From Eledone cirrhosa (lineage: Eukaryota): a stretch of DNA of 64,000 bases. Shown here in pieces: positions 352 to 62,590 of this stretch; the stretch's first letter is position 1; each line of letters starts with the position of its first letter. The stretch covers positions 97,588,001-97,652,000 of the forward strand of contig OZ024746.1 of assembly GCA_964016885.1 (NCBI GenBank), read 5' to 3'. The notes below the pieces were generated by a model. That model saw only the letters and a program-made list of their open reading frames with translations, had not been told where the DNA came from and searched no databases. Both the position numbers and the translations under genes were made by a program.

Positions 352-699
352 ACAATAGACCATGTAGAGGTTCCTTCTCTGTCATTGAAGATAGAAGTGG
401 AATGTAACAAAGTGCGCCCATTATATATATGAAAATGTAAAATTCCACAACAACAAGAGTAAACACTAGGATTAATTACTTGCTATATAATCAGGCCTTG
501 GTCTCCGGTCTCACTGGCTTTGCCAGCATTTCTTTCATTGGTAACCTCTTGCTGTGTGCTCATCTACAGGATTCTCCACAACACAACAGAACCCACTGTG
601 ATTGAGGAATGTGAGGCTGCCTGCAAGACTTGAAACCAGTTCGGAATCCACCCAGTAGATGTCCCTCCTCCTCTTCTACCTGTAGACATTAAATACCCA

Positions 700-1136
700 C
701 CCCACTTCCTCACAGTATATGGGATGCAATCCAGTGCGACATGGCCTCGGACAGGCTAGTATGCCAGCTCGAACAGCACCGCCTCTCATGTTTTCACTCA
801 GCCACGCAACCCCACAGCAGTGCCTGGCTCAATGCCTTATCCTACTTTTCAACTGGCACACAGCTGGATAAGGATAGCCTGGGAATCGGGGTTTCCCTGA
901 GGCTTGTCCTCCAGATCTGCAAGCCACATAAATGCCACTGCAGATCTACCGTAGACTCTTTCAGCCTCCATCTGCTGTCCTCTCGTGACAGTGCCGGTCC
1001 CCTTCCACACCATGCTGCTCTCAACGAGGTCATAAACACATGGCTTGGATGCTGTAGGCTACCCACCCCCCAGCTCAAGCCAGTGGGGCTGGACCAAAGA
1101 GACAGCAAAAGGCCAGATGGCATAACAATATTATAG
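700..1136 (+). pseudogene. C-terminal fragment of an RLE-type (CRE-like) non-LTR retrotransposon ORF
   Basis: ORF 741-1136 contains SSAWL.A, a degenerate zinc knuckle (C.PHKCHC...D...LHLLS), H.ALN.VI and the restriction-like endonuclease motif KRPDGIT. Confidence 0.65.
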
Positions 1137-1969: not shown

Positions 1970-2615
1970 AGACTGATGATAGCAAGCTGATGAAACCATA
2001 GCAGTGAAAATAGTTGGTGCTTTGGGTCTCTGAATTATCTTTTTGATGAAACTATAACAGTGAAATTATCTAGTTCTTTGGATCCTTGTGCTGTTGGTCC
2101 CTGAATTATCATTCTGATGAGACCATAGAAGTGAAAATATTTAGTGCTTTGGGTCCCAGCACCATTTCCCCAATGAAACCATAGCAGTGATAATACCTGG
2201 TATTTTGGGTTTCTGAATTATCTCTCTGATGAAACCATAGCAGGGAAAATACCTGGTGCTTTGGGTCCCTGAATTGTCTCCCTGATGAAACCATAGCAGG
2301 GAAAATACCTGGTGCTTTGGGTCCCTAAATTGTCTCCCTGATGAAACCATAGCAGGGAAAATACCTGGTGCTTTGGGTCTCTCAATTGTCTCCCTGATGA
2401 AACCATAGCAGGGAAAATACCTGGTATTTTGGGTCCCTAAATTGTCTCCCTGATGAAACCATAGCAGGGAAAATACCTGGTGCTTTGGGTCCCTCAATTA
2501 TCTCTCTGATGAAACAGTAGCAGGGAAAATACCTGGTGCTTTGGGTCCCTCAATTATCTCTCTGATGAAACAGTAGCAGGGAAAATACCTGGTATTTTGG
2601 GTCCCTCAATTATCG
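1970..2615. repeat. 56-bp minisatellite, about 10 units, degenerate on the left
   Basis: Unit CTGATGAAACCATAGCAGGGAAAATACCTGGTGCTTTGGGTCCCTCAATTATCTCT; consecutive starts at 2226 and 2282. Confidence 0.95.
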
Positions 2616-8616: not shown

Positions 8617-10478
8617 TCATCATCATCATCATCTTCGTTTAACGTCCATCTTCCACGCTAGCATGGGTTAGACAGGAGTTGTCCCACTTGAGGCAAGGTT
8701 GGTCGGGTGACCGTGTCTCGCTCATATAGGACTATCTGGCAGGTTTTCTACGGCTGGATGCCCTTCCTAACACCAACCAAATTTACAGTGTGGAACTGGG
8801 AACTTTTACCGTGTTACCTACACGGCCACATTACAGCGTGGACTGTGTGTTTTTTCTCGTGACACCTACACGATCTCGATCTCATTATCTCATTTATTTG
8901 GACTGGATGTTGTGGTACCAACTTTACAGAGAGAGGGTGGTGTTGGTGGGAGTGGGAGGATAGGGTAGGTGTAGTGGATTGGGGTGTATATTTGGTTAAG
9001 AGGTGCCTACTGACTGTAGGTTTTGCTTTGTACATAGGCAAGGCGGGTCATCTGTATTACTGTGTAGCGCCAAAGATCTCGGTCCAGTGACATTGTCTCA
9101 GAGAGGTGCAAGTGTGTAAGGTTGGAATTTATCAGATCATCCCAGGTTTTTCTGGTCTACCTACTTTTCTGGGTCTAACTACCATCAATTTTGATCGCCC
9201 TGCACTTTTATATACAGCTGTCGTCTTTCATGCGCATCACGCAGCCATACCAACATAGTCTTCTCTCGAGTAAAGAGCATCTGACCCCTCTTATTCCTAA
9301 TTTCTCACTTAGTTCATTTATGCTTTGCCGTTCACGTATATTACTATTACACATCCAAAGGAGCATGCATGCTTCATTCCTTTCCAGTCTACGCAGGTCC
9401 TCTGCACATAATGCCCATGTCTCACTGCCATGTAGCATTGCTGTTCGTATACAAGCATCATACAATCTGCCTTTCATTTTTAGAGAGAAACCTTTAGTGG
9501 CCAACAGCGATATAAGCTCTCTGAACTTTTTCCATCCCGTTCTGACTCTGGTTACTGTACTTTCAGAACACCCGCCACCACTGCTGATTTCATCACCCAG
9601 GTAACGGAAAGTTTCTACTATTTCTATAGAACCATCTGGGCAATAGAAGGGGCTAGTATCCTGTGGACACTTGCTACCTATTGCACCTGAGCATCGGCCA
9701 CATATAAAGTCTACGTTCTTAGATAGTTTACCTGTGATCCTACTACATCTTTTATGTACCCATACTTTGCATTTGGGACATAAAATTGAATTTCTGCCTA
9801 CTCCTTTCCTACACACTGAGCAAGGCCATTTCCCTGAGGGTACCTGTGCCTTATTTTCCTTTCTACAAACTAGGACTTTAGTCTTAGACAAGTTAGCTTT
9901 AAGGCCTTTTGATTCTAGGCCATGCTTCCATGTTTGGAATTTCTTTTCTAGTTCAGCCATTGATTCAGCTATGAGCGTTAGATCATCTGCGTACAGGAGT
10001 TCCCATGGGCAGCCGGTCTTGAACTTCTCTGTTATAGCCTGAAGGGCAATAATAAATAGGAGGGAGCTAAGGACAGAGCTTTGGTGAACACCAACTTTTA
10101 CACTAAATTCTTCACAATATTCATTGTTAATTCTAACCTTACTGACTGTTTCATTATACATAGCTTGTATAGCTCTCACAAGCCATTCATCTACACCTAG
10201 TTTTCTAAGAGCCCACCAGATAATGGAGCGGGGGACTCTGTCAAAGGCTTTTTCCAGGTCTACAAAAGCTAAGTAGAGGGGTTTACTTTTAGCTAGGCAC
10301 TTCTCTTGTAGTTGTCGTACAAGGAAAAGAGCGTCTGTGGTACTTTTACCTGACACAAACCCAAACTGCATTTCATCTAGATCAATTCGCTCTCTGATTA
10401 GTTGCGCTATAACTCTTTCTGTGACCTTCATGATCTGGTCAACTAACTTAATGCCTCTATAGTTTCCTCTATCTTGCT
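8617..10478 (-). mobile_element. 5'-truncated RTE-clade LINE (family RTE-1)
   Basis: Reverse transcriptase ORF followed by a 3' UTR and the tail CCCATGCTAGCGTGGAAGATGGACGTTAAACG(ATG)n; the 5' end abuts (TA)n. Confidence 0.92.
9030..10478 (-). pseudogene. RTE reverse transcriptase with Cys-rich (PHD-like) insert, premature stop at 9208-9210
   Basis: Motifs NYRGIKL, QFGF, AFVDLEKAFDRV, GVHQ.SVLS, LLYADD, CSVC...C.KC..WVHKRC...C.RC, FRYLG and MLHGSETW. Homology continues past the stop (TWDDLI...DRDLWRY). The ORF-track N-terminus MCVCMHIYIY is a microsatellite artefact. Confidence 0.9.
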
Positions 10479-11104
10479 TATATATATATATATATATATA
10501 TATATGCATACACACACACATTCCTATTCTAAACTGGAAACCCTCAAAGCTTCCTTTTTTTAAATATTGCTATTAAAAGTAGTTTGAAGATTCTGAAATT
10601 TATTTAGCTCTTAAAAATGATCTAAAGAGAGGTTTCTTATTTCAAATGTGTGTGTGTGTGTGTGTGTGTGCGCGCACACACACTCAACAGGCCTCTGTAC
10701 AGTGTCTATTTATCAATTTTCACTGACACAACACTCTTCAACCTGCGAATGTAGTAGAAGACACTTATGCAAGGTGCTACACTTTATAACTGAACGCAAA
10801 ACTACATAGTTGCCAAGTGAACTCCTTAAGCACACAGCCATACTTGCACTTATATTTATTTCATTCCCAAAACATCTTAATACTTGACTAATTAGTTATT
10901 ATAAGCAGATTAGTTCAATCAGGGGAAAAGTATTATCTCATAAGAGGCAAGCTGAAGTACAGTCATTTGTACTAATAATGAAGTCCTGCCCTGATCTTGA
11001 TAACAGACAATTGTAATTTCTAAATTGTCAAATACAATATGTGAATAATCTTTCTGCATATGAATAGATAAATGTTTAGAATTAAATATACTACACTCCA
11101 TGAA

Positions 11105-47911: not shown

Positions 47912-48770
47912 ACTAGCTCACGTACCCAGCTTCACCTGGGTAAACAGATGATAAGAGAAGACAGGTAAAAGAGAAAATGACTGTATTGGATGTTTGTCTG
48001 GTTACAGTATGAGGCGAGTCCGTGGTGTCTGTGTGATACAAAAAACAGTAAAAAAAATCTTCCAGATATACCAGATTCTTCGTTGTACCGTTTGTGCATA
48101 GTGTATAAACAATTCTAGGTGTTCCCACCTAGAATAGTGACCTCTAGGAGATGGTTCATCTTCTGCCTGACTGTAAAACGTGTATCATTGCATAGACGTG
48201 GTTGTTCCACGTTTCTCAAAAGGATGATGGAAGTTCCAATCTTTTATATTATATGTAGATATAGATATAGATAATTAATATAAAAGATGATGCTCAGCCA
48301 GTTCGTCTTCAACCATCGCAGCACGCCGTCGCTGCTTGGCTCCAGTGTTTCGTTGGCGTTGTTCAGCCAGCTCCTCTTCATTCATGGTGGCACGTCTTCG
48401 CCTCTGAAGTTCAGCATTCCGATGGTGCTGCTCGGCCCGTTTTTCTTCATTGCTAGCTGCACGCCGTCGCCACTGTAGTTCACTGTTTAATAAAGTCGAA
48501 TTGCTTTTACTTTCTGTGGAACGCTGCACGCACGCACACACACATAAACATACCCGCACATACATACACACGCACACATGGTAATAGTTACAGCATTCAC
48601 TTTGCCTCTCTGTTTCTTACTCTCCCGTCTCACTCCCTCATTGGCATTATGCATATTAATTTAAGTTTGGCGTTGTTGAGGTGGCCAGAGTCGTTTGAAA
48701 CCTATGAACCAATGATAATCGAGAATTATGACACACGGAATACTGACATTGTTGAAATTAATATATAGAT
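47912..48770. mobile_element. Helitron/Helentron-like non-autonomous remnant
   Basis: One end is ACTAGCTCACGTACCCAGCTTCACCTGGG (subterminal hairpin CCCAG/CTGGG) and the other AATATATAGAT. Internal minus-strand ORF 48275-48577 has ~23-aa Arg/Glu repeats resembling RepHel N-terminal (STPR-like) repeats. Confidence 0.55.
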
Positions 48771-50435
48771 GTGTAAAAGGTTATGTATTGAATGGGACAC
48801 ATCATCATCATCCCATTTTACATCCATTCTTCCACACTAGCATGGGCTAGACGTGTTTTCCTGTTGTGGGCAGTGCCTGGTCAGCTGACCTTGTCTTGCT
48901 TATATGGGAACTGATTGTGGCATGATTTCTACAGTTGGATGCCTTCCTAACACCAACCTCATTTACAGTGAGTGCTGGGTGCTTTTTTTTCCGTGGCGCC
49001 TACACAACCACTTTACAGTGTGGGCTGGGTGCTTTTTTGCCGTGGGAGGGGGTGAGGGAATATTGCCTATATGCTTCAGCTTCGGCTTGTACCCGTGGGA
49101 AGTCAGGCCGTATCCTTAATTCATTTCCTAAGCTGAATCAGTAAAACAATAAATGACACAAGTCTTGGGCTCACCCAAAACTATGGTAAAGACATTTGCT
49201 CAAGCTGTCATGCAATGAGATCAAACCAGGAATCTCATAATTGTGAAATGAAATACATTACCACTCAGCCATGCCTGTGTCCACAATTTTCACTCTTTGG
49301 GGATTAGCATGATATCATAAATATTTCATTTCCTTTTCCTTATCCTTTCTCTATTGCCTTATTCTAACCATATATATACAAAATTATAAAGCAACATTGA
49401 GGGAAATGTATTGAGATATAAATGATTAAAAAAAATGTATTCTCATTGTTTGTCACAATGTTAAAGCAATATCCAATTTACATGTGGTTTCAGATATTTT
49501 ACAAATTTAGAATCATGCAACAAAATGGCAGTAGAAAAATAGCAACACAATATTAGATTGAGAGAGATTATTTAGATAACTAAAACTACATTGTTTACAA
49601 CACTGAATCAAAATTGACCTCATTGATCTTGAGCATGGAAAGATGAATCAATGATCTGAACTTAGTACATTAACAAAATAAACTTTAGATTTAGCCATTT
49701 TGATAAAGAACCCACATGAAACTGCCACTGGTTCTATGATATAATACTGTTTATTTTAAAGTATATATATTTATCTAAGAAAAATTCCATTATGATTTTA
49801 TGTAAGAACTTTTGTTAAATTATGTTCCAAACATGATATTATTGAATCCCTCCAATTTGTTGATTATTCTCAAAATAATTTGTAAATCATATGCATTATT
49901 CCACTTTAGAAATGTGCTAATGAAAGGGTTAACACAATTCATTTCTAAAATATACTTTTTCCTTTTTAGTGAATGAAAATTCATAATAATATTGAACTGA
50001 GAAGAAACCAATAAAAATAGATGCTGCAAACAAAAACACAAACACACAAAAAAAACACAATCATATTTTTCTCTTTCAAAACAATTGAATTTTGCCTTAT
50101 TATATTTTCTGCAATTCAAGTGGAAATCAATGCAAACTTTAATATGTTTTATTCCAAGACAATTGTGAAAAGAATGAATACAAATAGTGGCATATTTGGA
50201 GAACCAAGTTTCTTGAATAAGGATTGAACAGGTTTGTGTAATATTCAAAAGTTTAAATGAGAAGCAAATTATGTTTGAATTGTTTTCATAATTAACCAAC
50301 AAAAGTGGCCACAGTTTGCTTCATACACATTCACAATTAAATAAGAACAGCAAATATTCAAAGTTTAATCAATTCTTGGAAGTAATATTTGGCAGGACTA
50401 TTAAAAGAATGAGTGGTGGCATGGCTGTATGATTA

Positions 50436-50644
50436 ATTCTTTAGCATTAAACCAGCCATATCTTGCCAGAATTCTCTCAACTCTTTCTGTTCAAACTGGC
50501 CATAACCTGCCACTTATACTGATGTTACGGTATTGTTCTCAAAATAAATAATATCAAAATCTCATAGATTCAATATCATGTGAAATAATTATGTAAGATA
50601 AAGCCTTCACTCTGAAAATACAATAGTAAATATAGAGTAAAGGG
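50436..50644. mobile_element. piggyBac-type MITE inserted in a SINE head
   Basis: TTAA-flanked; TGGCATGGCTGTATGA|TTAA precedes it and AGTGTCTGCTTC follows. Confidence 0.75.
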
Positions 50645-50763
50645 TTAAAGTGTCTGCTTCAAAATAATGGGATTTCAATTTCAGCCTCACTGCATGATAC
50701 TTTGGGTATATATCTTTTACTATAGCCTCAGTCAACCAACATTTTTGCAATTATATTTCTAAT

Positions 50764-51141
50764 GCATTGGCCTTGTAATCGAAAGGTTGTGAGTTCAATT
50801 CTCAGACCAGGTGATGTGTTGTTTCCTTGAGCAAGACACTTTATTTCACATTGTTCCAGTTTACTCAACTGTAAAAATGAGATGATAGGACTGGGTTCCA
50901 TATCATTCCACTGCAAAGTGGTCGTGGAGGTGCCACGGCAAAAAAGCACCCAGCCCACACTGTAAAGTAGATGAGTAGGTGCCACGGCAAAAAGAGCACC
51001 CAGCACTCACTGTAAATGAGATTGGTGTAAGAAAGGGCATCCAGCTGTAGAAATCAAGCCAGAATCAAGCCAGTTCCCATCCCACCCTTGCAAGCAGGAA
51101 AAAGCGGATGTAAAATGATGATGACGATGATGATGATGATG
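50764..51141 (+). mobile_element. SINE family B (5'-clipped) with RTE-2 tail
   Basis: B box, core, body and (ATG)n tail. Confidence 0.85.
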
Positions 51142-52161
51142 AATGAAACATATTATCTGTGATCTTCAATTCTTAAAATAATCAAATTTTTATATCTTTG
51201 GGAGCGAGGAATGGTAACATAACTCACGTTTTCATTAACAAGTTGGTGAGTATGACTTAACTTAATAGCTTCTTATCATCATCATCATCATCATCATCAT
51301 TTTATGCTCGCTTTTCCCTGATTGCAAGGGTGGTACGAGCCCTATTCAGCACAGCATCTCTCCATTCATCACGGTCCTACATCATCTCTGAGAGCTTCAG
51401 CAATCTGTGGTCAGCTCTCACCAACTCCACCCATGATTTTCGTGGTCTTCCTCTACTGCATCTTCCTTCCACTGTGATTTCTTGGCACTTCTTTACCCAA
51501 ATGGGTTTTGATCATAGAACTAAGACCAGTTTCAAGAAGATATGTTAAATCAATCATTCCTAAACTTTAGCTTGATCATCATCATCGTTTGACATGCATT
51601 TTCCATGCTAGCATGGGTCAGATGGGTTGTCTCATTTGTGGTATGTTGCATAAGGTGACTGTGTTTTACTCAATAAGTTACAGTTTCATTTACAACAAAA
51701 TCTATTGAAATAAATTATCAAAGAAACTTCTTAATATCAGTCCTATATATTTTCTCATTTGGAGATTTATGGCATTTTGGTAAATATGGCAATCAAGAGA
51801 ATAATGTTATTAAGTAGCTATATCCACTCTGCAAACTGTTAGGAAGGAATCCTATTGTAGAACATATGCTTCTTCTTTCTTCTTTTCGTATCTTCGAAAC
51901 ATGTGGTTATATGACAGTTTCCCATTTCTTTACACAGTCCTTTGCATTATTATTAAATTCTGCGAGATCTAATAAAACTAATAAAAAGGATTCTTCAGTT
52001 GGATTAAGAGGTTCCTACTGAGTGTATGTTTGAGTCCATGCACAAGGGGTGGCGGGTATTCTATATTACTGCATAGCACCAAAGATCTCAATCCTGTGCA
52101 ATTGTCTTTGAGAGATGCAAGTGTGCAAGTCACCATTTATTGCCTGGCCCCAGTGTATGTG

Positions 52162-52195
<34 letters not shown>

Positions 52196-52244
52196 TGTGC
52201 ATACATACATACATATATGTATATATATACACAAATATATATAC

Positions 52245-52294
<50 letters not shown>

Positions 52295-52441
52295 TATTTT
52301 CCGTTGTGTTGTAATATAAATATTACACACAGTAGATTGACAGCTCACGTAGAGTTTGCTCGACGGTTCCAGTTGTAGTTCCAAAAGTAATCCGGAGAAA
52401 AATAGAAAGATTTGAATGGATACAGTTTAGTTGAAAGGAAT

Positions 52442-52562
52442 TTATTGACACGTGTTTCTATAACAGTTACATAACCTGAAAACAGCTGCTATCTACAAAG
52501 TATTAGTTATGCAGATATTCAATATTTCAATGTTATTATTTACTGTCATTTCATCAGAATAA
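52442..52562 (-). ncRNA. Type I hammerhead ribozyme motif (mirror copy)
   Basis: Reverse-complement arm of 52651-52771. Confidence 0.72.
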
Positions 52563-52650
52563 TATTACTGAGGACCTGTTTGGTTTTTATAGAGAATATT
52601 AGGAGGGAGGGGTGAAGTTGTTAGAAGAATAGTTGAGGTCCTCAGTAATA

Positions 52651-52771
52651 TTATTCTGATGAAATGACAGTAAATAATAACATTGAAATATTGAATGTCT
52701 GCATAACTAATACTTTGTAGATAGCAGCTGTTTTCAGGTTATGTAACTGTTATAGAAACACGTGTCAATAA
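52651..52771 (+). ncRNA. Type I hammerhead ribozyme motif with long stem II insert
   Basis: TTATT-CTGATGA (52656-52662)-stem II ATGACAGT/ACTGTTAT-GAAAC-ACGT-GTC-AATAA. Stem I is TTATT/AATAA, loop 3 is the palindrome ACACGTGT, and predicted cleavage is after 52766. Confidence 0.75.
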
Positions 52772-52806
52772 ATTCCTTTCAACTAAACTGTATCCATTCA
52801 AATCTT

Positions 52807-52874
<68 letters not shown>

Positions 52875-52952
52875 TATATATATATAGGTGTTTGTGATGT
52901 TTGTCAAGCAAAATTGATAAATGCTTCTAATATAGACATGTGTATATATATA

Positions 52953-53457
52953 TCATCATCATCATCATCATCGTCGTTTAACGTCCATGTTCCACGCTTG
53001 CATGGGTTTGGAAGGGAGTTTTCCCACTTGAAGCAAGAGTGGTTGTCTTGCTCGCATAGGACTGTCTGGCGGGTTTTCTACAGCTGGATGCCCTTCCTAA
53101 CACCAACCACATTTACAGTGTGGGACTGGGAGGTTTTTTCCGTGTTGCCTACACGGCCACATTACAGCGTGGACTGTGTGTTTTTTTTGTCGTGACACCT
53201 ACACGACCTCATTTATTTCGGGCTGGATGTTGTGGTACCAACATAACTTTACATTGAAAGAGGTGGTGTGGTTGGGGTGTGGGTAGTGGGACGGGGTGTA
53301 TTTTATTAGAGGTGCCTACTGACTGTAGTAGGTTTCACTTTGTACTTAGGTAAGGCGGGTCTTTTCTATTACTGTGTAGTGCCAAAGCTCTCGGTCCAGT
53401 GACATTGTCTTGGAGAGGTGTAAGTGTGTGAGGTCGGAATTTATCAAGTCGTCCCAC
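52953..53457 (-). mobile_element. Short 5'-truncated RTE-1 LINE
   Basis: WDDLINSDLTHLHLSKTMSLDRELWHY plus a 3' UTR homologous to 8617-9140. Confidence 0.88.
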
Positions 53458-53987
53458 ACACACACATATATATATATATCTGTGTGTGTGTGTATGTGTG
53501 TGTGTGTGTATGTGTGTGTATGTGTGTGTGTGTGTGTGCATACATATATATATAGGTGTGTGTGATGTTTTTCAAGCAAAATTGATAAATGCTTCTAATA
53601 CAGACATGTGTATCCCTGCATAGAACCACAAAGTTACTAAGACAAAACATATATATTTGCTAGCATAGGTATGCATCTGTATACATATGTCGGTAGATAT
53701 ATTAATTCTTTATAATTATCTCCAAATTATTTGTTGAGCAAAATTTGCCGAAATTACTACTGTGGCTGATAGTAGTGGCTAGGCTCTGTCTTAATAGCAC
53801 CCCCACTCCTAGCTGATTAACCTCAGTGTCACGTGATTGATTCTTTTGAATTTGCCACTTGACCAAGTAGGCAGTGAATTTTTCAATGTCTTGGAATCTA
53901 GCCCCGCTCGCTTTTTTCCATCCACTGAATTATTTTTATATAAGTTCCCAGTGTCCCCGCATTGCCTGGAAGCTTAGCTGAGAATAG

Positions 53988-54068
53988 AGTCCCTGATGAT
54001 GTAAGGCTTCTCTATAGTTATATTACGTAACTATATTTATCCCCTTACAGAAACGAATTAGTTGGAGT
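53988..54068 (+). ncRNA. Type I hammerhead ribozyme-like motif in a probable Penelope-like remnant
   Basis: AGTCC-CTGATGA-stem II TGTAAGG/CCTTACA (with inner hairpin TATAGTTA/TAACTATA)-GAAAC-GAATTA-GTT-GGAGT; stem I has one mismatch. Confidence 0.6.
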
Positions 54069-54115
54069 GAAATTTCAGTAAGTCAATTTTCATAACTTTC
54101 TTATTTACGTCTTTC

Positions 54116-54170
<55 letters not shown>

Positions 54171-55614
54171 CGCGCATATATATATATAGGTGTGTGTGAT
54201 GTTTTTCAAGCAAATTTGATAAATGCTTCTAATACAGACATGTAACTGGAACTGATTACAAATTTGTGTTGGTGTTGTGATAATCAGATATTTCTGAAGG
54301 TGTTCTAGCAGGGAAAGCGAGTATTAAATGATGATAATCACGATGAAATAAAGGAAGACGAAATGGTTCCAGCTGAGAATTAACTGAAGTAACTTACACT
54401 GATGAAGTATATGTCTGAAAAATCATATCATACACTTGGGGATTTGTAAAATGAGAATTATTAGAAATACACTGAAATTACACTGGCTTTAACATCCATC
54501 ATCCTGAGTAGTTTTAAGATGAAATAATTCTCAATATATAAACATATTTTTTCAGTTTAAGTCAACTGTTACACCATATTTAGATTAGAGTAGTATTATC
54601 TGGGGGCCTCCTTTACAATCTGGATCAATAATTAGTTGTGAAGGTATCAATATTTTTTTATACATATCCCTAACCATCAACTATTGATTATTTTTCCTTT
54701 GATTAGATAGAAAGCTGTTGGAAGTTAAAATCTAGCATTATTGTTTGAGTTTCATTGTCTGAAAATTGATGTTTATCAAGACATAATCTATATTGATAAG
54801 CAGTCATAATTCAAATTGTATCTGATAAACATCAAAGATATATTTAAAATGGTGAAGTATTTTATTAAGATTAAAGTAAAATTCAAGTTTATGTAAATTA
54901 TCATCAACGTTTTCATCTTTTTCTTCCCTTTCCTCTTCCTCAACTTTGCCCACTTATTCCTGAGAGGGTGCAGAGTCCTCAAGCACTCCTTCTGGTGAGT
55001 CCTGTCAAAAGCAACCATCTCCAACTGATTCAGCTGGATCCCCCAAGGATGTTATCTAACCATTTTGGATGTTATCTAACCATTTTGGATGTTATCTAAC
55101 CATTTTGGATGTTATCTAACTATTTTGCTTATGGTCTACCCCCGGGTCTCATGCTGGTTGGTTTTACCTGTAAAATCTGTCCAGTGATTCTTTCCTGAGA
55201 CATTCTAACCACATGGCCATAGTATTGGAGCTGTGATCTCTCAATTCAGAGAATACCAAGCCACAGAATGCCAAAATGATTTGTTAACTACGATGTATTG
55301 TCGACTTCATTATAACTGAAGTAAAGAGACTAACATTAAAATTACTTAAAAACAATGTTTATTAATGTGTCTAAAACAAAGACAGATCACCATGATAAAG
55401 TACATTGATCAACTAATAAATTGTAGCAACTTTCAGTTTTTAGTTCATAGCCTGTATATTGTTTGTTTGATAAAGTGTAGAGATAACCCATAAACTGTAA
55501 AGAAGTCATATTTTTGATAAATTACTTGAATATGTTTGGATTTGATTAATATATCATTTCTTGACACCAACGAAAAATAAAAATTGGGTGATACTGGAAA
55601 GAATAAGAGTAAAC

Positions 55615-55646
<32 letters not shown>

Positions 55647-56091
55647 CATGTGCATATATATATGTATATATATATATATATATACTGATATCCACCTGTA
55701 AAAAAAAGAACTGATTAAGAACCAATTTTCGCCTTTTGTGTTATGTTAATTGTTCAAAATACACACGCATGTGTATATATGTATATGAGTGTATGTGTAT
55801 ATATATATATATGTATATACATATGTGTGTGTGTCTATATATATACACACACAAACATTATATGTGTATATATATAGAGAGAGAGATGTAGGTCATAAAA
55901 GAAAAATAGCTATCGTCATTTAATATTGATGATTATTTTGAATGCTAAATTATGTATCTTATATCTGGTAAAAGAAAATAGTGTATCGAAAGTCATTAAT
56001 AGAATAGTGGGGTCTCTGCCAATACTTAAAATGATTGATTAGGAACATAGGTTGTTCTATAAGGAACTTATTTATATATATATATATATAT

Positions 56092-56285
56092 ATCATCATC
56101 ATCATTTTATGTCCGCTTTTCCCTGCTTGCAAGGGTTGGATGGGTCCTATTCAGCACGGCATCTCTCCACTTGTCACGGTCCTTCGTCATCTCCTCGGTG
56201 AGTTTCAGCAATCTAACGTCTGCTCTCACCACCTCCGCCCATGTTTTACGTGGTCTACCTCTACTGCATCTTCCTTCTACATGGG
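56092..56285 (-). mobile_element. 3' end of RTE-2 fused to an RTE-3 fragment (to about 56405)
   Basis: VEGRCSRGRPRKTWAEVVRAD...DKWRDAVL; the tail is next to (TA)n. Confidence 0.75.
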
Positions 56286-56572
56286 TCTCATGCAGTTTGG
56301 TTTTGCCTATAAAATCTGTCCAGTGATTCATTCCTAACCACATGCCCATAGTATTGGAGCTGTGATCTAACAATTCAGAGAAGTAGCGGCTCTACCTGGA
56401 GTGATATGTTTTCTTTTTTTTTCCAGATTTGTATATGTAAGAAGTGATTGCAATGCTATAGTCATATCATCCAAAGTTAATATGCCTGTTTCAATCTACA
56501 CGGAGTAGCAGAATATTGTTTTTAATAAGTCTAGAATTTGTTTTTATGCTCTAACATAGCAGATACATAAAT

Positions 56573-56894
56573 GTATTCATGAGTTTTATATCGAATAATA
56601 ATTATTTAAAGCCAGTCATAAAATCGCTTGGTATGCAAATTAGGCTAATCAGACGATGTATACTTTAGAGAATACTATATATTCTCAAGAGTTCTAATGA
56701 GTGACAGAAGAGAGATACACAATCTTGAGAAAGGGCAATAACCCAGAAACAATATTGTCGATTGTTTCTCTGTGTCACCGCTAGAACAAAAGGATGGCGA
56801 TGGTCATCTAAAACACATAGCATAATGAGGCTGTTTACTTGCAAATAAATTGAATAGTATTATTATATATTCGATATAAAACTCACGAAGATAC
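56573..56894. mobile_element. Unclassified MITE-like element with short terminal inverted repeats
   Basis: TTCATGAGTTTTATATCGAATA at 56576 is inverted as TATTCGATATAAAACTCACGAA ending at 56889. Confidence 0.5.
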
Positions 56895-57061
56895 TCTAAT
56901 GATTTAAGTAGAATATATATAGAAGCTAGTTTGTTAATTCAAATGTTTATAGTATCTTTTATAGACAATAGATCATTATGACAATTTGCAGTAAACTAAA
57001 TTAAAGGCTAGCTTTAATTTCTAATGTCATGCAGCCAGAGTTCTGTTTTAATTCTTTGTTA

Positions 57062-57500
57062 ATAGTTTCTACTTTTGGCACAAGGCCAGTAATTACTCCA
57101 ATACATTACTGGTACTTTATTTTATCGACCCCATAAAGATGAAAGGACTCCAGTACATTACTGGTACTCTATTTTATCGACCCCATAAAGATGAAAGGCA
57201 AAGTTAACCTTGACAGGATCTGAACTCAGACCGTAAAGGGCCGTAACTATATGCTGCAAAACATGGCGTCAGACCCTCCACTGATACTGCCAATCTATGC
57301 GTCCTTTGCTAATAATTTTCTACTTTTGGCACAAGGCCAGCAATTACCCAGTGCATTACTGGTACTTTATTTTATCAAAACTGAAAGGATGAAAGGCAAA
57401 CTTAACCTTGGCAGGATTTGAACTCAGAATGGCAAGGGTCGTAACTCTATGCTGCAAAGTATGGTGTCCGACCCTCTACTGATACTGCCAATCCATCATG
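57062..57500 (-). mobile_element. Two tandem SINE A copies
   Basis: Both are near full length; the target CTTTG(T/C)TAATA occurs three times (57054, 57304, 57501). The first copy has an internal ~52-bp duplication. Confidence 0.85.
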
Positions 57501-57847
57501 CTTTGCTAATAATGCAGCTTCATTTGGTACAAAATGTTAAGAGTTAATTGAAAATATAGCAACAATGTATTCATTAGAAATATGATCACAAAATGGTTAA
57601 TGAGAACGATGATAGAATTGAAAGGTTATGATGTCAAAGAAAGTGTTTCCTTTCATAAGTTATTGTCAAGTCAATTCAAGGATTATAAAATAATAATAAA
57701 TCAACTGAGGTAATCAACTCTTTTAACATCAAACTGTCTGAAACAGCCCATGTTTATGATTCACAGCTGTTTATTTATCTAAAATACTTCCACCCACAAT
57801 CTCGTGCAAGAACCTTTTGTTAAGTTATATTCAAATCACCAACTTAA

Positions 57848-58162
57848 CCCTTTACCATTTACATTACTCTATATTTACTATTGTATTTTTGTGGTAAAGT
57901 CTTTATTTCACATAATTATCTCACATTATGTCAACTTTGCCTTTCATCCTTACGGGGTCGATAAAATAAAGTACCAGTAATGTACTGGGTAATTGCTGGC
58001 CTTGTGCCTAAAGTAGAAACAATTATGTCAAATCTATGAGATTTTGATATTTATTTTGAGAACAATACCTTAACATCTGTAGGTGTGATGAGTTATAGCC
58101 AGTTTGAACAGAAAAAAGTGAGAGAATTCTGGCCAGATATGGCCAGTTTAAATGCTAAAGGG
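57848..58162. mobile_element. piggyBac-type MITE with nested 5'-truncated SINE A (about 57930-58021)
   Basis: TSD ATTATGTCAA around the SINE. Confidence 0.82.
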
Positions 58163-61079: not shown

Positions 61080-62127
61080 TTGAATGCACGTAGTCTATGC
61101 AATAAGATTCATCTTTTTTGACTCCTATGTCAAAAGTATCAACCCTGACTTCATTACAGTCACGGAAACTTGGGCACATCCCTTACTCTGTGATGGGGTT
61201 TTCAGCATGACTGGCTACAACCTGTTTCATAAAGACCGCATTAATCGTCGTGGTGGTGGTGGTGTAATGGTCTACGTTCGGTCAAATCTGTCGGCAATTC
61301 CTTGTGCTGATTTGAACCAATCACAGCAGGAAGTTTTTTTCTGCGCTATTCGTATGACCATGTCAACACTGCTACTTGGAGTCGTTTACCGTCCCCCAAA
61401 TTACCATCAGGACACTCAACTTTTTGATATCCGCAGAGCTGCTACCAGGAAGATAGCCAATTATGTTTTCCTTGCAGGAGACTCCTGATACAGTCATTAG
61501 TGTTACTGCTGAGGAACCTTTAGGTGACTCTGATCATGCTATGATCATTGCCAATCTATCCCTCATGGGCAGTAACAAGAACCACAACCATCTCCAAACT
61601 GCTCACTTTGACTGGAATAAAGCAGACTGGAACTGTTACTGCACCGAGTTGCAACGGCCAAACTGGCTTGAGTTCTATGACTCTGGAGATGTCAACACTG
61701 TACTCCAGAACATCCTGAGCTCAATATGGACAGCATGTGCAGCATTGGTGCCACGTAAGTGGAAAAAACATCCCAAAAGTGCAATTTGGGAGAATGCAGC
61801 AGTCCGTCTTGCCAGAAAAGAACGGCGCAATGCTGAACGTGAGTACAAACTTCACAAATCAGACATTAATAGGAAGAGGCGAAATAGATCGTCCAACCAC
61901 CTCAAACAGGTGACAAAAAAGGCAGTGCTTCAATTTGAGCAGCGCATCGCAACCAGCCCTGACAGTAAGTTGTTCTGGAAGTATGTTCACTCAAAGCAGA
62001 GGCCTCACTCTCCAGTTGGTCCTCTTCGCAATCCCCACACAAGCCAGGTTACTGACGACCCCAAGGAATGCGCAGAGCTCATTGCTGAATGCTATGCAGG
62101 CATTTTCACTATTGAAGACCAGAGTGA
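61080..62127 (+). pseudogene. CR1/L2-like LINE ORF2 fragment: AP endonuclease plus linker, internally deleted and frameshifted
   Basis: Motifs PDFITVTETW, GYNLF.KDR...GGGV..YV, VVYRPP, LAGD, PLGDSDH, F.W.KADW and K.FWKYV.SK; no RT domain. Confidence 0.85.
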
Positions 62128-62590
62128 AGAAATATGCAAAGCAATCCTAACCAAGGTTATTTAGCACTAAACTAACTTCTACCAGTAAGACTTCCCTAAA
62201 ATTCATTCTAAATAACTATATAAAACTTTGATGAGATACTATGAGAGATAAAGCCTTTTCTGTGAAAATAAAATAGTAAATATAGAATAAAGTAAATGCT
62301 AAAGGATTCATATAATTCTCAGAGAAATTCATTGTGACACAATATGTCATAATATTTGTTTTTTAATTACAGGTATAGTTCTTCCAACAAACTTCCAAAC
62401 AGTTCCATTCCCCCAAGTTCACTCACAAGTTTGTGCTGAAGTGAAGTTATATTAAATAAAATTTGTCTAAAATATCACACAGTTGTATTAAACCCAGGAC
62501 CTTATCTGTGTGAAGGAATCCTCTTAACCATTTGAATATGAAATACAAATATAACTAGGAAATAAGTTTAGTTAATGTGTATGAGATATA

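What the first reader, a model, noticed from the sequence alone, without database searches (positions are those of the whole stretch)
52292..52810. Near-perfect 174-bp foldback carrying two outward-facing hammerhead ribozymes
Seen: arms 52404-52577 / 52636-52809 with one mismatch, embedded in (TA)n. Each arm reads stem I (TTATT/AATAA), CUGAUGA, an unusually long stem II of about 90 nt, GAAAC-ACGT-GUC. Established: minimal type I hammerheads with a short stem III and palindromic loop 3 occur in Penelope-like element (PLE) pseudo-LTRs and cleave as dimers; PLE insertions often leave inverted pLTR copies. Inference: this is a young, ORF-less PLE or retrozyme-like insertion from a possibly uncatalogued family with an expanded stem II. 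The base of stem II is an A-A mismatch, so activity is uncertain.
Basis: partly seen in the sequence, partly recalled or inferred. Interest (0 to 1): 0.8.

Follow-up and report, generated by a model that had tools for sequence, protein, structure and literature searches.

The report
Young Penelope retrotransposon stump, long-stemmed hammerhead
The mirror-image repeat is a short dead copy of a young, abundant Penelope-like jumping gene: two copies of its end joined head to head, one carrying an extra 110-base tail, each with a hammerhead-ribozyme motif whose middle stem is predicted to be over three times longer than in catalogued relatives and whose cutting is untested.

Summary
The foldback is real: 174-bp arms, one mismatch. 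It is not a retrozyme. It is a 519-bp, doubly 5'-truncated insertion of an autonomous Penelope-like element with Hydra-clade motifs. The genome holds 2,897 exact matches to a 34-nt core, and 55 of the 59 best ORF hits have no stop. Head-to-head arms are this family's usual insertion form. In 45 of 45 outward-facing end pairs on one contig, one arm carries a 110-nt tail and the other does not. This fits two coupled reverse-transcription starts. The hammerhead core is complete. Its stem II region is 88-92 nt, against 12-26 nt in 26 published Hydra entries. The A·A mismatch is fixed in the youngest copies; an older subfamily (525 matches) has A-U. Against activity: no compensatory changes, no Rfam hit here, and no clear excess of copies starting at the predicted cut. 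The two motifs lie on opposite strands, so they cannot pair up within one RNA. This scan noted similar fold-back Penelope stumps in other genomes. Verdict: new variant of a known kind.

The parts
52201..52291 (.). (TA)n-rich target microsatellite, left flank
   Evidence: TRF array
52292..52403 (-). PLE 'tail' of 110-112 nt; the longer of the element's two fixed 3' ends is at 52292
   Evidence: 1,115 exact tail-end/(TA)n joins in the genome
52404..52577 (-). Tailed arm: pseudo-LTR with hammerhead motif on the minus strand (stem I starts 52562, core 52557-52551, predicted cut between 52447 and 52446)
   Evidence: positions mirrored from the + arm
52578..52635 (-). Spacer: upstream part of the same pseudo-LTR, with a TATAAAAA motif at 52591-52584, 29 nt before stem I
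   Evidence: promoter function not tested
52636..52638 (.). Head-to-head junction with 3-nt overlap (AGG) shared by both arms
52636..52809 (+). Tail-less arm: 5'-truncated pseudo-LTR ending at the shorter fixed 3' end
   Evidence: 30 of 42 scored matches 100% identical over all 174 nt; 1,457 exact short-end/(TA)n joins
52651..52771 (+). Type I hammerhead motif: 5-bp A-U stem I, CUGAUGA, GAAA, palindromic ACACGUGU stem III, C17 at 52766
   Evidence: natural short-stem copy L087 hits RF00163 below threshold
52663..52754 (+). 92-nt stem II rod with A·A at its base
52810..52886 (.). One extra CT unit, then (TA)n-rich right flank

Best explanation
The 519-bp insert is a dead, doubly 5'-truncated copy of an autonomous Penelope-like retrotransposon with Hydra-clade motifs, likely made when the element's protein nicked both strands of a (TA)n tract and started reverse transcription twice on element RNA, once at each of two fixed sites 110 nt apart. 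Shown: family membership, two fixed 3' ends on (TA)n, one tailed and one tail-less arm, a 3-nt overlap at the junction, intact 773-aa ORFs elsewhere. Inferred: both cDNAs stopped early (after about 347 and 174 nt) and were joined head to head through the overlap; the two starts are coupled, probably in a protein dimer. The hammerhead is a passenger of the pseudo-LTR. It would cut only as a dimer through its self-complementary stem III, probably weakly and with protein help, in tandem full-length transcripts. At this locus a read-through RNA of either strand would bury it in 174 bp of duplex.
For: 2,897 exact matches of a 34-nt core, control 0. The full unit is about 3.55 kb: pLTR, ORF, long 3' UTR, pLTR. 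55 of 59 scored ORF hits have no stop (best hits only, of 93,459 candidates). 19 of 20 fetched encode 773 aa with RWK, DKT, YRDD, CxCX5C, YYVG, CxxC and CxH, 99.5% mean pairwise identity; these are the Hydra features of PMC8557442 section 11. The model (pLDDT 89.5) matches telomerase RTs in 9 of the top 10 Foldseek rows. 45 of 45 outward-facing end pairs are one tailed plus one tail-less, p 2e-14. 35 of 44 junctions overlap by 1-10 nt. In 9 of 27 junctions with both ends placed, the tail-less arm reaches further 5' than the tailed arm (counted by eye), so it is not a copy of it. An anole PLE protein nicks and extends both strands and starts at two sites that bound the tail (PMC11167929).
Against: No read bridges this locus's own junction in the 4 runs laid. 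The two-start mechanism rests on genomic end patterns and another clade's in vitro data; there the two strands showed no difference in start site. No tree with published Hydra proteins was built. The unit is longer than the 'generally under 3 kb' given for Hydra. Pfam gave no family for the protein and PDB sequence searches gave nothing meaningful. 87 of the 183 listed ends had no partner within 10 kb in the exact-match lists.
Confidence: 0.82

Rival explanations
1. Same element and insertion route, but the hammerhead no longer cuts in the young subfamilies; the long rod is kept as a protein-binding or RT-pausing structure, or is simply carried along.
For: No G10.1-C11.1 pair; the base pair went from A-U to A·A and another basal pair was lost in the younger copies. 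Stem I is five A-U pairs; the monomer fold is -18.8 against -23.4 kcal/mol for the minimum. 0 of 40 pairs show compensatory change. Copies starting at the predicted cut (25 of 89) do not clearly exceed a nearby microhomology control (14-16 of 81), p 0.11-0.21 (by eye; 114). In the anole element ribozyme mutants did not affect insertion in vitro.
Against: The core letters, stem I and the palindromic stem III persist across subfamilies about 9% apart, though my patterns selected for part of them. U·U sits at the same place in 14 of 26 Hydra rows. Shared changes in the basal helix keep pairing (A-U to G-U in 5 of 40, C-G to U-G in 7 of 40), and the youngest variants gain 4 apical pairs.
Confidence: 0.35
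2. One priming event, then the first cDNA snapped back on itself and was copied to give the mirror arm.
For: The arms here are near identical and the tail-less arm is nested in the tailed arm; short overlaps mark the junctions. Self-priming was proposed for PLE inversions (PMC3846280 passages).
Against: In 9 of 27 junctions the tail-less arm extends further 5' than the tailed arm, and in 2 (L061, L106) the arms do not overlap at all. A tail-less arm cannot template a tail.
Confidence: 0.1
3. A non-autonomous retrozyme-like unit that moves as this small foldback.
For: Animal retrozymes derive from PLE pLTRs (abstract and first part of 10.64898/2026.07.22.740005). 5 of the first 100 core matches' neighbour pairs are foldbacks with cores within 500 bp.
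Against: Retrozymes are head-to-tail tandem repeats. Here junction positions differ from insertion to insertion and sizes run from 162 to 6,190 bp; none of the other 43 junctions matches this one.
Confidence: 0.03
4. The inversion is an assembly or library fold-back artefact.
For: No read support for this junction, and the T at 52516 was not seen in runs X1, X7 or X19.
Against: An artefact would not give one tailed and one tail-less end in 45 of 45 pairs. Contigs of two other public runs hold head-to-head joints of the same kind, one contig each at depth 2-22. The flanks on the two sides differ.
Confidence: 0.02

Closest known systems
Hydra clade of C-terminal EN+ Penelope-like elements (Craig et al. 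2021, PMC8557442), including Hydra-1_Obim of Octopus bimaculoides
   Same: Single ORF with RT then GIY-YIG-type nuclease; RWK, DKT, CxCX5C, CxxC and CxH motifs; (TA)n target; hammerhead near the 3' end with a palindromic stem III (acac/gtgt also in Hydra-1_cRog and Penelope-17_HM).
   Different: Unit about 3.55 kb with a 0.9-1.1-kb stretch from stop codon to hammerhead; stem II region 88-92 nt against 12-26 nt. Not Hydra-1_Obim: 16 of the first 39 residues match by eye and the hammerhead differs. Best database relatives are 42-43% identical.
Canonical PLE insertion unit: pLTR, adjacent inverted 5'-truncated copy, tail at one end (PMC8557442 Fig. 2 legend; PMC3846280)
   Same: Head-to-head arms, microhomology junction, tail on one end only, partial tandems.
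   Different: Tail is 110-112 nt against the 30-40 bp in those papers; here the one-tail rule is counted (45 of 45).
Poseidon element of Anolis carolinensis, PAc (Frangieh et al. 2024, PMC11167929)
   Same: Two internal reverse-transcription start sites bounding the tail, AT-rich target, hammerhead in the pLTR.
   Different: Different clade. In PAc the hammerhead overlaps the ORF start; here it ends 209 nt before it. PAc showed no strand preference of start site in vitro.
Minimal type I hammerheads of metazoan PLEs (Cervera and De la Pena 2014, PMC4209133; Rfam RF00163)
   Same: Complete core, short stem I, palindromic stem III suited to dimers.
   Different: No G10.1-C11.1 pair; helix II there is 7-8 bp in the Schistosoma families, here a rod of about 30 predicted pairs that Rfam misses.
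Non-LTR retrozymes
   Same: Type I hammerhead of PLE pLTR origin.
   Different: Not a tandem array and not a fixed non-autonomous unit.

Membership tests
EN+ Penelope-like element | Single ORF with telomerase-like RT | tested here: met
   773-aa ORF with YRDD; 9 of top 10 Foldseek rows are telomerase RTs
EN+ Penelope-like element | C-terminal GIY-YIG endonuclease | tested here: inconclusive
   IIY...YYVG...R...E...N pattern conserved with relatives by eye; no Pfam hit; domain not fold-searched alone
EN+ Penelope-like element | pLTRs in partial tandems, inverted 5'-truncated copy, tail at one end | tested here: met
Hydra clade | RWK motif and DKG changed to DKT | tested here: met
   RVRWK at 35, ADKT at 120 in 20 of 20
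Hydra clade | CxCX5C linker; CxxC and CxH beside the conserved E and N | tested here: met
   linker in 19 of 20, CxxC and CxH in 20 of 20
Hydra clade | CCHH motif absent from the nuclease | tested here: met
   by eye: no CxxC before the YVG motif; motif layout recalled
Hydra clade | Insertion into (TA)n | tested here: met
   84 of 104 tail ends in held loci sit on (TA)n, 12 read on into the ORF leader
Hydra clade | Generally short (under 3 kb) | tested here: not met
   unit about 3.55 kb; a tendency in the paper, not a diagnostic
Hydra clade | RT groups with Hydra in a tree | not tested
   published Hydra proteins were seen only as text in a supplement
Type I hammerhead ribozyme | Core C3-A9, G12-A14, A15.1-U16.1, H17 | tested here: met
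Type I hammerhead ribozyme | Stems I, II and III can form | tested here: inconclusive
   stem II z -3.3 to -3.8; stem III self-duplex -10.3 kcal/mol; monomer fold 4.6 kcal/mol above the minimum; no covariation
Type I hammerhead ribozyme | G10.1-C11.1 pair (typical, not universal) | tested here: not met
   A·A here, A-U in the older subfamily
Type I hammerhead ribozyme | Rfam RF00163 gathering score | tested here: not met
   no hit in the window arm; natural 26-nt-insert copy L087 scores 21.9 bits, E 0.0028, threshold 34
Type I hammerhead ribozyme | Self-cleavage after C17 | not testable with these tools
   genomic footprint test gave no clear signal
Non-LTR retrozyme | Head-to-tail tandem units, each with a hammerhead, no ORF in the family | tested here: not met
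   head-to-head arms; autonomous ORFs

The most novel reading that the evidence does not exclude
This family integrates by an obligately paired reaction in which one protein-RNA unit primes at the tail site and its partner at the short site, with the palindromic hammerhead stem III pairing the two RNA copies; the 90-nt stem II with an A·A base is an active long-arm hammerhead whose 5' edge is the transcript start. Such long-arm motifs would escape standard descriptors, so PLE ribozymes would be undercounted.
Probability: 0.2. Interest if true: 0.75.

Novelty: new variant of a known kind. Interest (0 to 1): 0.48.

Why it matters
How Penelope-like elements make their inverted ends and one-sided tail is still open, and only one full-length protein has been studied in vitro (PMC11167929). 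This family gives a strict genomic rule (one tail per inverted insertion), over a thousand insertions, dozens of unbroken ORFs at 99.5% identity and a simple (TA)n target, so it is a good substrate for testing the mechanism. Its natural hammerhead variants (A-U/92, A·A/92, A·A/91, A·A/88 nt, and a 26-nt deletion) let one ask directly whether the ribozyme still cuts in a successful family. The locus itself is one ordinary dead copy.

Tried and rejected
Rfam on 48000-58000 and on the arm alone: no hammerhead hit. My scripted hammerhead scan of the window returned nothing, not even the known motif, so it was faulty and is not used. Short ancestral stem II: the pattern with an 8-38-nt insert gave 4 matches; L087 is a one-off deletion whose inverted partner has 92 nt, so no short-stem ancestor was found. 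Covariation: none above shuffles, 468 of 500 as high. Pile-up of 5' ends at the predicted cut: not clearly above control; 3 of 140 unselected arms start within 5 nt of it. Expression: no RNA holder listed, which is no evidence either way. Lunse et al. 2017 is not held; I saw it only as a reference in PMC6765202. An alternative short fold using GAAA at 52686 was rejected by eye: only 2 bp of stem I. No complex prediction was run. Earlier-findings search by sequence: nothing.

Full report
OBSERVATION. The inverted repeat is as described: arms 52404-52577 and 52636-52809, 174 nt, one mismatch at 52516/52697, far beyond chance. The + arm reads TTATT, CTGATGA (52656), a 92-nt insert, GAAACACGTGTC (52755-52766), AATAA. 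The insert folds as one rod (z -3.3) with A opposite A at its base. The (TA)n flanks the whole 519-bp insert. The spacer and the 112 bp left of the left arm are element sequence.

THE FAMILY. A search of the own genome (3.0 Gb) with the arm gave 42 matches at 99-100% from 40 scored of 772 candidates. A 34-nt pattern over the 3' core has 2,897 exact matches, control 0. Copies about 3.55 kb apart flank an ORF. Of the 59 best ORF hits, 55 have no stop (best-scoring only). Of 20 fetched, 19 encode 773 aa with RWK, DKT, YRDD, CxCX5C, YYVG, CxxC and CxH at 99.5% mean pairwise identity; the 20th has an 8-residue deletion. These are the features given for the Hydra clade (PMC8557442 section 11). The predicted structure (pLDDT 89.5) matches telomerase RTs best. 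Pfam and PDB sequence searches gave nothing useful. The nearest database proteins are 42-43% identical and mostly unnamed. The supplement lists Hydra-1_Obim from an octopus, but it is a different family by eye. No tool named the host; that it is a cephalopod is my recalled impression of the repeat landscape, not shown.

INSERTION ANATOMY. The element has two fixed 3' ends 110 nt apart, both joined to (TA)n: 1,457 short ends (control 4) and 1,115 tailed ends (control 0). Among the 183 ends listed for contig C1 up to 182 Mb, 48 neighbouring pairs lie within 10 kb. 45 face outward, and all 45 are one tailed plus one tail-less (p 2e-14); the other 3 pairs have other orientations and 87 ends had no listed partner. 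Of 44 inversion junctions in held loci, 35 overlap by 1-10 nt, 2 are blunt and 7 have extra bases (BLAST estimates). The window copy is a tailed arm on the minus strand (52292-52638) and a tail-less arm on the plus strand (52636-52809) sharing 3 nt. In 9 of the 27 junctions where both ends could be placed, the tail-less arm reaches further 5' (by eye), which simple snap-back copying cannot give. Either arm can exceed one unit (L067 tailed, L081 tail-less), so templates are multimeric or circular (inference). Published descriptions have the same layout with a 30-40-bp tail (PMC8557442, PMC3846280). The anole protein nicks and extends both strands and starts at two sites bounding the tail (PMC11167929). 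I infer two coupled priming events. Coupling is the step beyond the papers I read, since the in vitro work saw no strand difference.

ARTEFACT CHECK. Contigs of runs X2 and X7 hold three head-to-head joints at other positions, and 107 raw reads of X19 run from 52402 into (TA)n. No read bridged this locus's own junction.

THE HAMMERHEAD. All core positions are present. Stem III is the palindrome ACACGUGU (self-duplex -10.3 kcal/mol); the monomer fold is 4.6 kcal/mol above the minimum. Rfam misses the window copy but gives a natural copy with a deleted insert 21.9 bits for RF00163, under the threshold of 34. In the 26 Hydra rows of the supplement the stem II region is 12-26 nt and 14 rows have U·U at its base; two non-Hydra rows reach about 50 nt (counted by eye). 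Those rows came from descriptor searches that could miss long stems. A sister subfamily with 525 matches has no A at that position (U in 99 of the first 100 listed). It is older: median pairwise difference 5.9% (n 22) against 0.65% (n 52) for A·A 92-nt copies (the latter is biased low because 30 loci were picked for identity to this arm). ORF-bearing loci carry A·A with inserts of 88 nt mostly, and these variants gain four apical pairs. Among 40 distinct sequences no pair shows a compensatory change and covariation does not beat shuffles; shared basal changes are one-sided and keep pairing, but two basal pairs are lost in 19 of 40. The 88-nt subfamily was largely left out of that alignment by my filter. 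So the rod is thermodynamically credible, not proven by covariation.

DOES IT CUT? If cut RNA were the template, arms should start at 52767. Of 89 matches that break from the element in 52764-52779, 25 start at 52767-52768; in the adjoining control span 14-16 of 81 start at a TATA that also matches the target, and 18 more at 52750 are ambiguous (by eye; p 0.11-0.21). In 140 arms chosen only by their 3' end (80 and 60 of the first 100 listed of each kind), 75 ran beyond the fetched stretch and 65 ended in it; 3 start near the cut. Following a lead from earlier scan notes, I looked at the motif's 5' edge: 10 arms (8 independent) start in an 18-nt span there against 1.6 expected; P 3e-4 for a fixed place, 0.054 when scan-corrected. 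The three joints in other runs also fall there, and one further joint lies elsewhere. A TATAAAAA lies 29 nt upstream, so this may be a transcript start; but a second cluster of 6 sits on the same TAATATT word, so microhomology is a live rival. At this locus a read-through RNA of either strand makes the antisense arm first and would bury the one sense motif. Only a transcript starting inside the tailed arm would escape that.

LITERATURE SEEN. PMC4209133 parts 1-2 of 4; PMC11167929 parts 1-2 of 4 and passages; PMC8557442 passages, section 11, supplement part 2 of 59 and search hits (file cut when stored); 10.64898/2026.07.22.740005 part 1 of 5; passages of PMC6765202 and PMC3846280. Searches listed no paper on this family, on a 90-nt stem II in a PLE or on a 110-nt tail; I read only the papers named. 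Unseen supplements of PMC4209133 and PMC11167929, Lunse et al. 2017, Repbase and Dfam could hold such cases.

VERDICT. Real, and explained as one of over a thousand insertions of a young PLE with Hydra-clade motifs. The layout is known. The long stem II, the fixed A·A, the long tail and the counted one-tail rule make it a new variant. Ribozyme activity is open; I put it near even odds or a little better for dimer- or protein-assisted cutting.

Noticed in passing
L123, L129, L132; L126, L133, L134; L121: Other hammerhead-like motifs with the same stem III and 40-66-nt inserts, in at least two unrelated repeat groups; L129 lies beside a remnant 36% like the nuclease end of this protein (E 4e-11). 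Long stem II may recur in other PLE families of this genome.
   Followed up: partly
window 52292-52403 (-): The tail's minimum-energy fold closes its two ends in a 7-bp helix, which would bring the two start sites together; weak (z -1.95, 7 of 200) and absent from the centroid in a wider context. Its last hairpin varies in the loop between subfamilies.
   Followed up: partly
window 52810; L001, L091, L187: 6 of 181 ends examined carry 1 to more than 20 extra CT units between the short end and the (TA)n, which may be stuttering at the priming site.
   Followed up: partly
window 2017-2614: 56-nt tandem array whose unit holds CTGATGA and GAAA; no Rfam hammerhead hit and no convincing stem III by eye.
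   Followed up: partly
window 52821-52941, 53489-53609, 54123-54243: Three copies of a 121-nt repeat spaced 668 and 634 bp; the insertion abuts the (TA)n head of the first.
   Followed up: no
window 9208-10569 (-), 61084-62164 (+), 693-1136 (+): Open frames that look like fragments of non-LTR retrotransposons: an RTE-like RT, an AP-endonuclease region and a restriction-like endonuclease end (labels recalled, not searched).
   Followed up: no
L031 4742-5570: The element's own 3' UTR holds a (TA)n/(TG)n-rich tract, the same kind of sequence it targets; its length varies between copies.
   Followed up: no
runs X1, X2/X4-X6, X3, X7: Runs under four organism labels, in three studies, hold 58-73% of the element's sampled words; those laid differ by a few percent, so the family may span related species.
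   Followed up: partly
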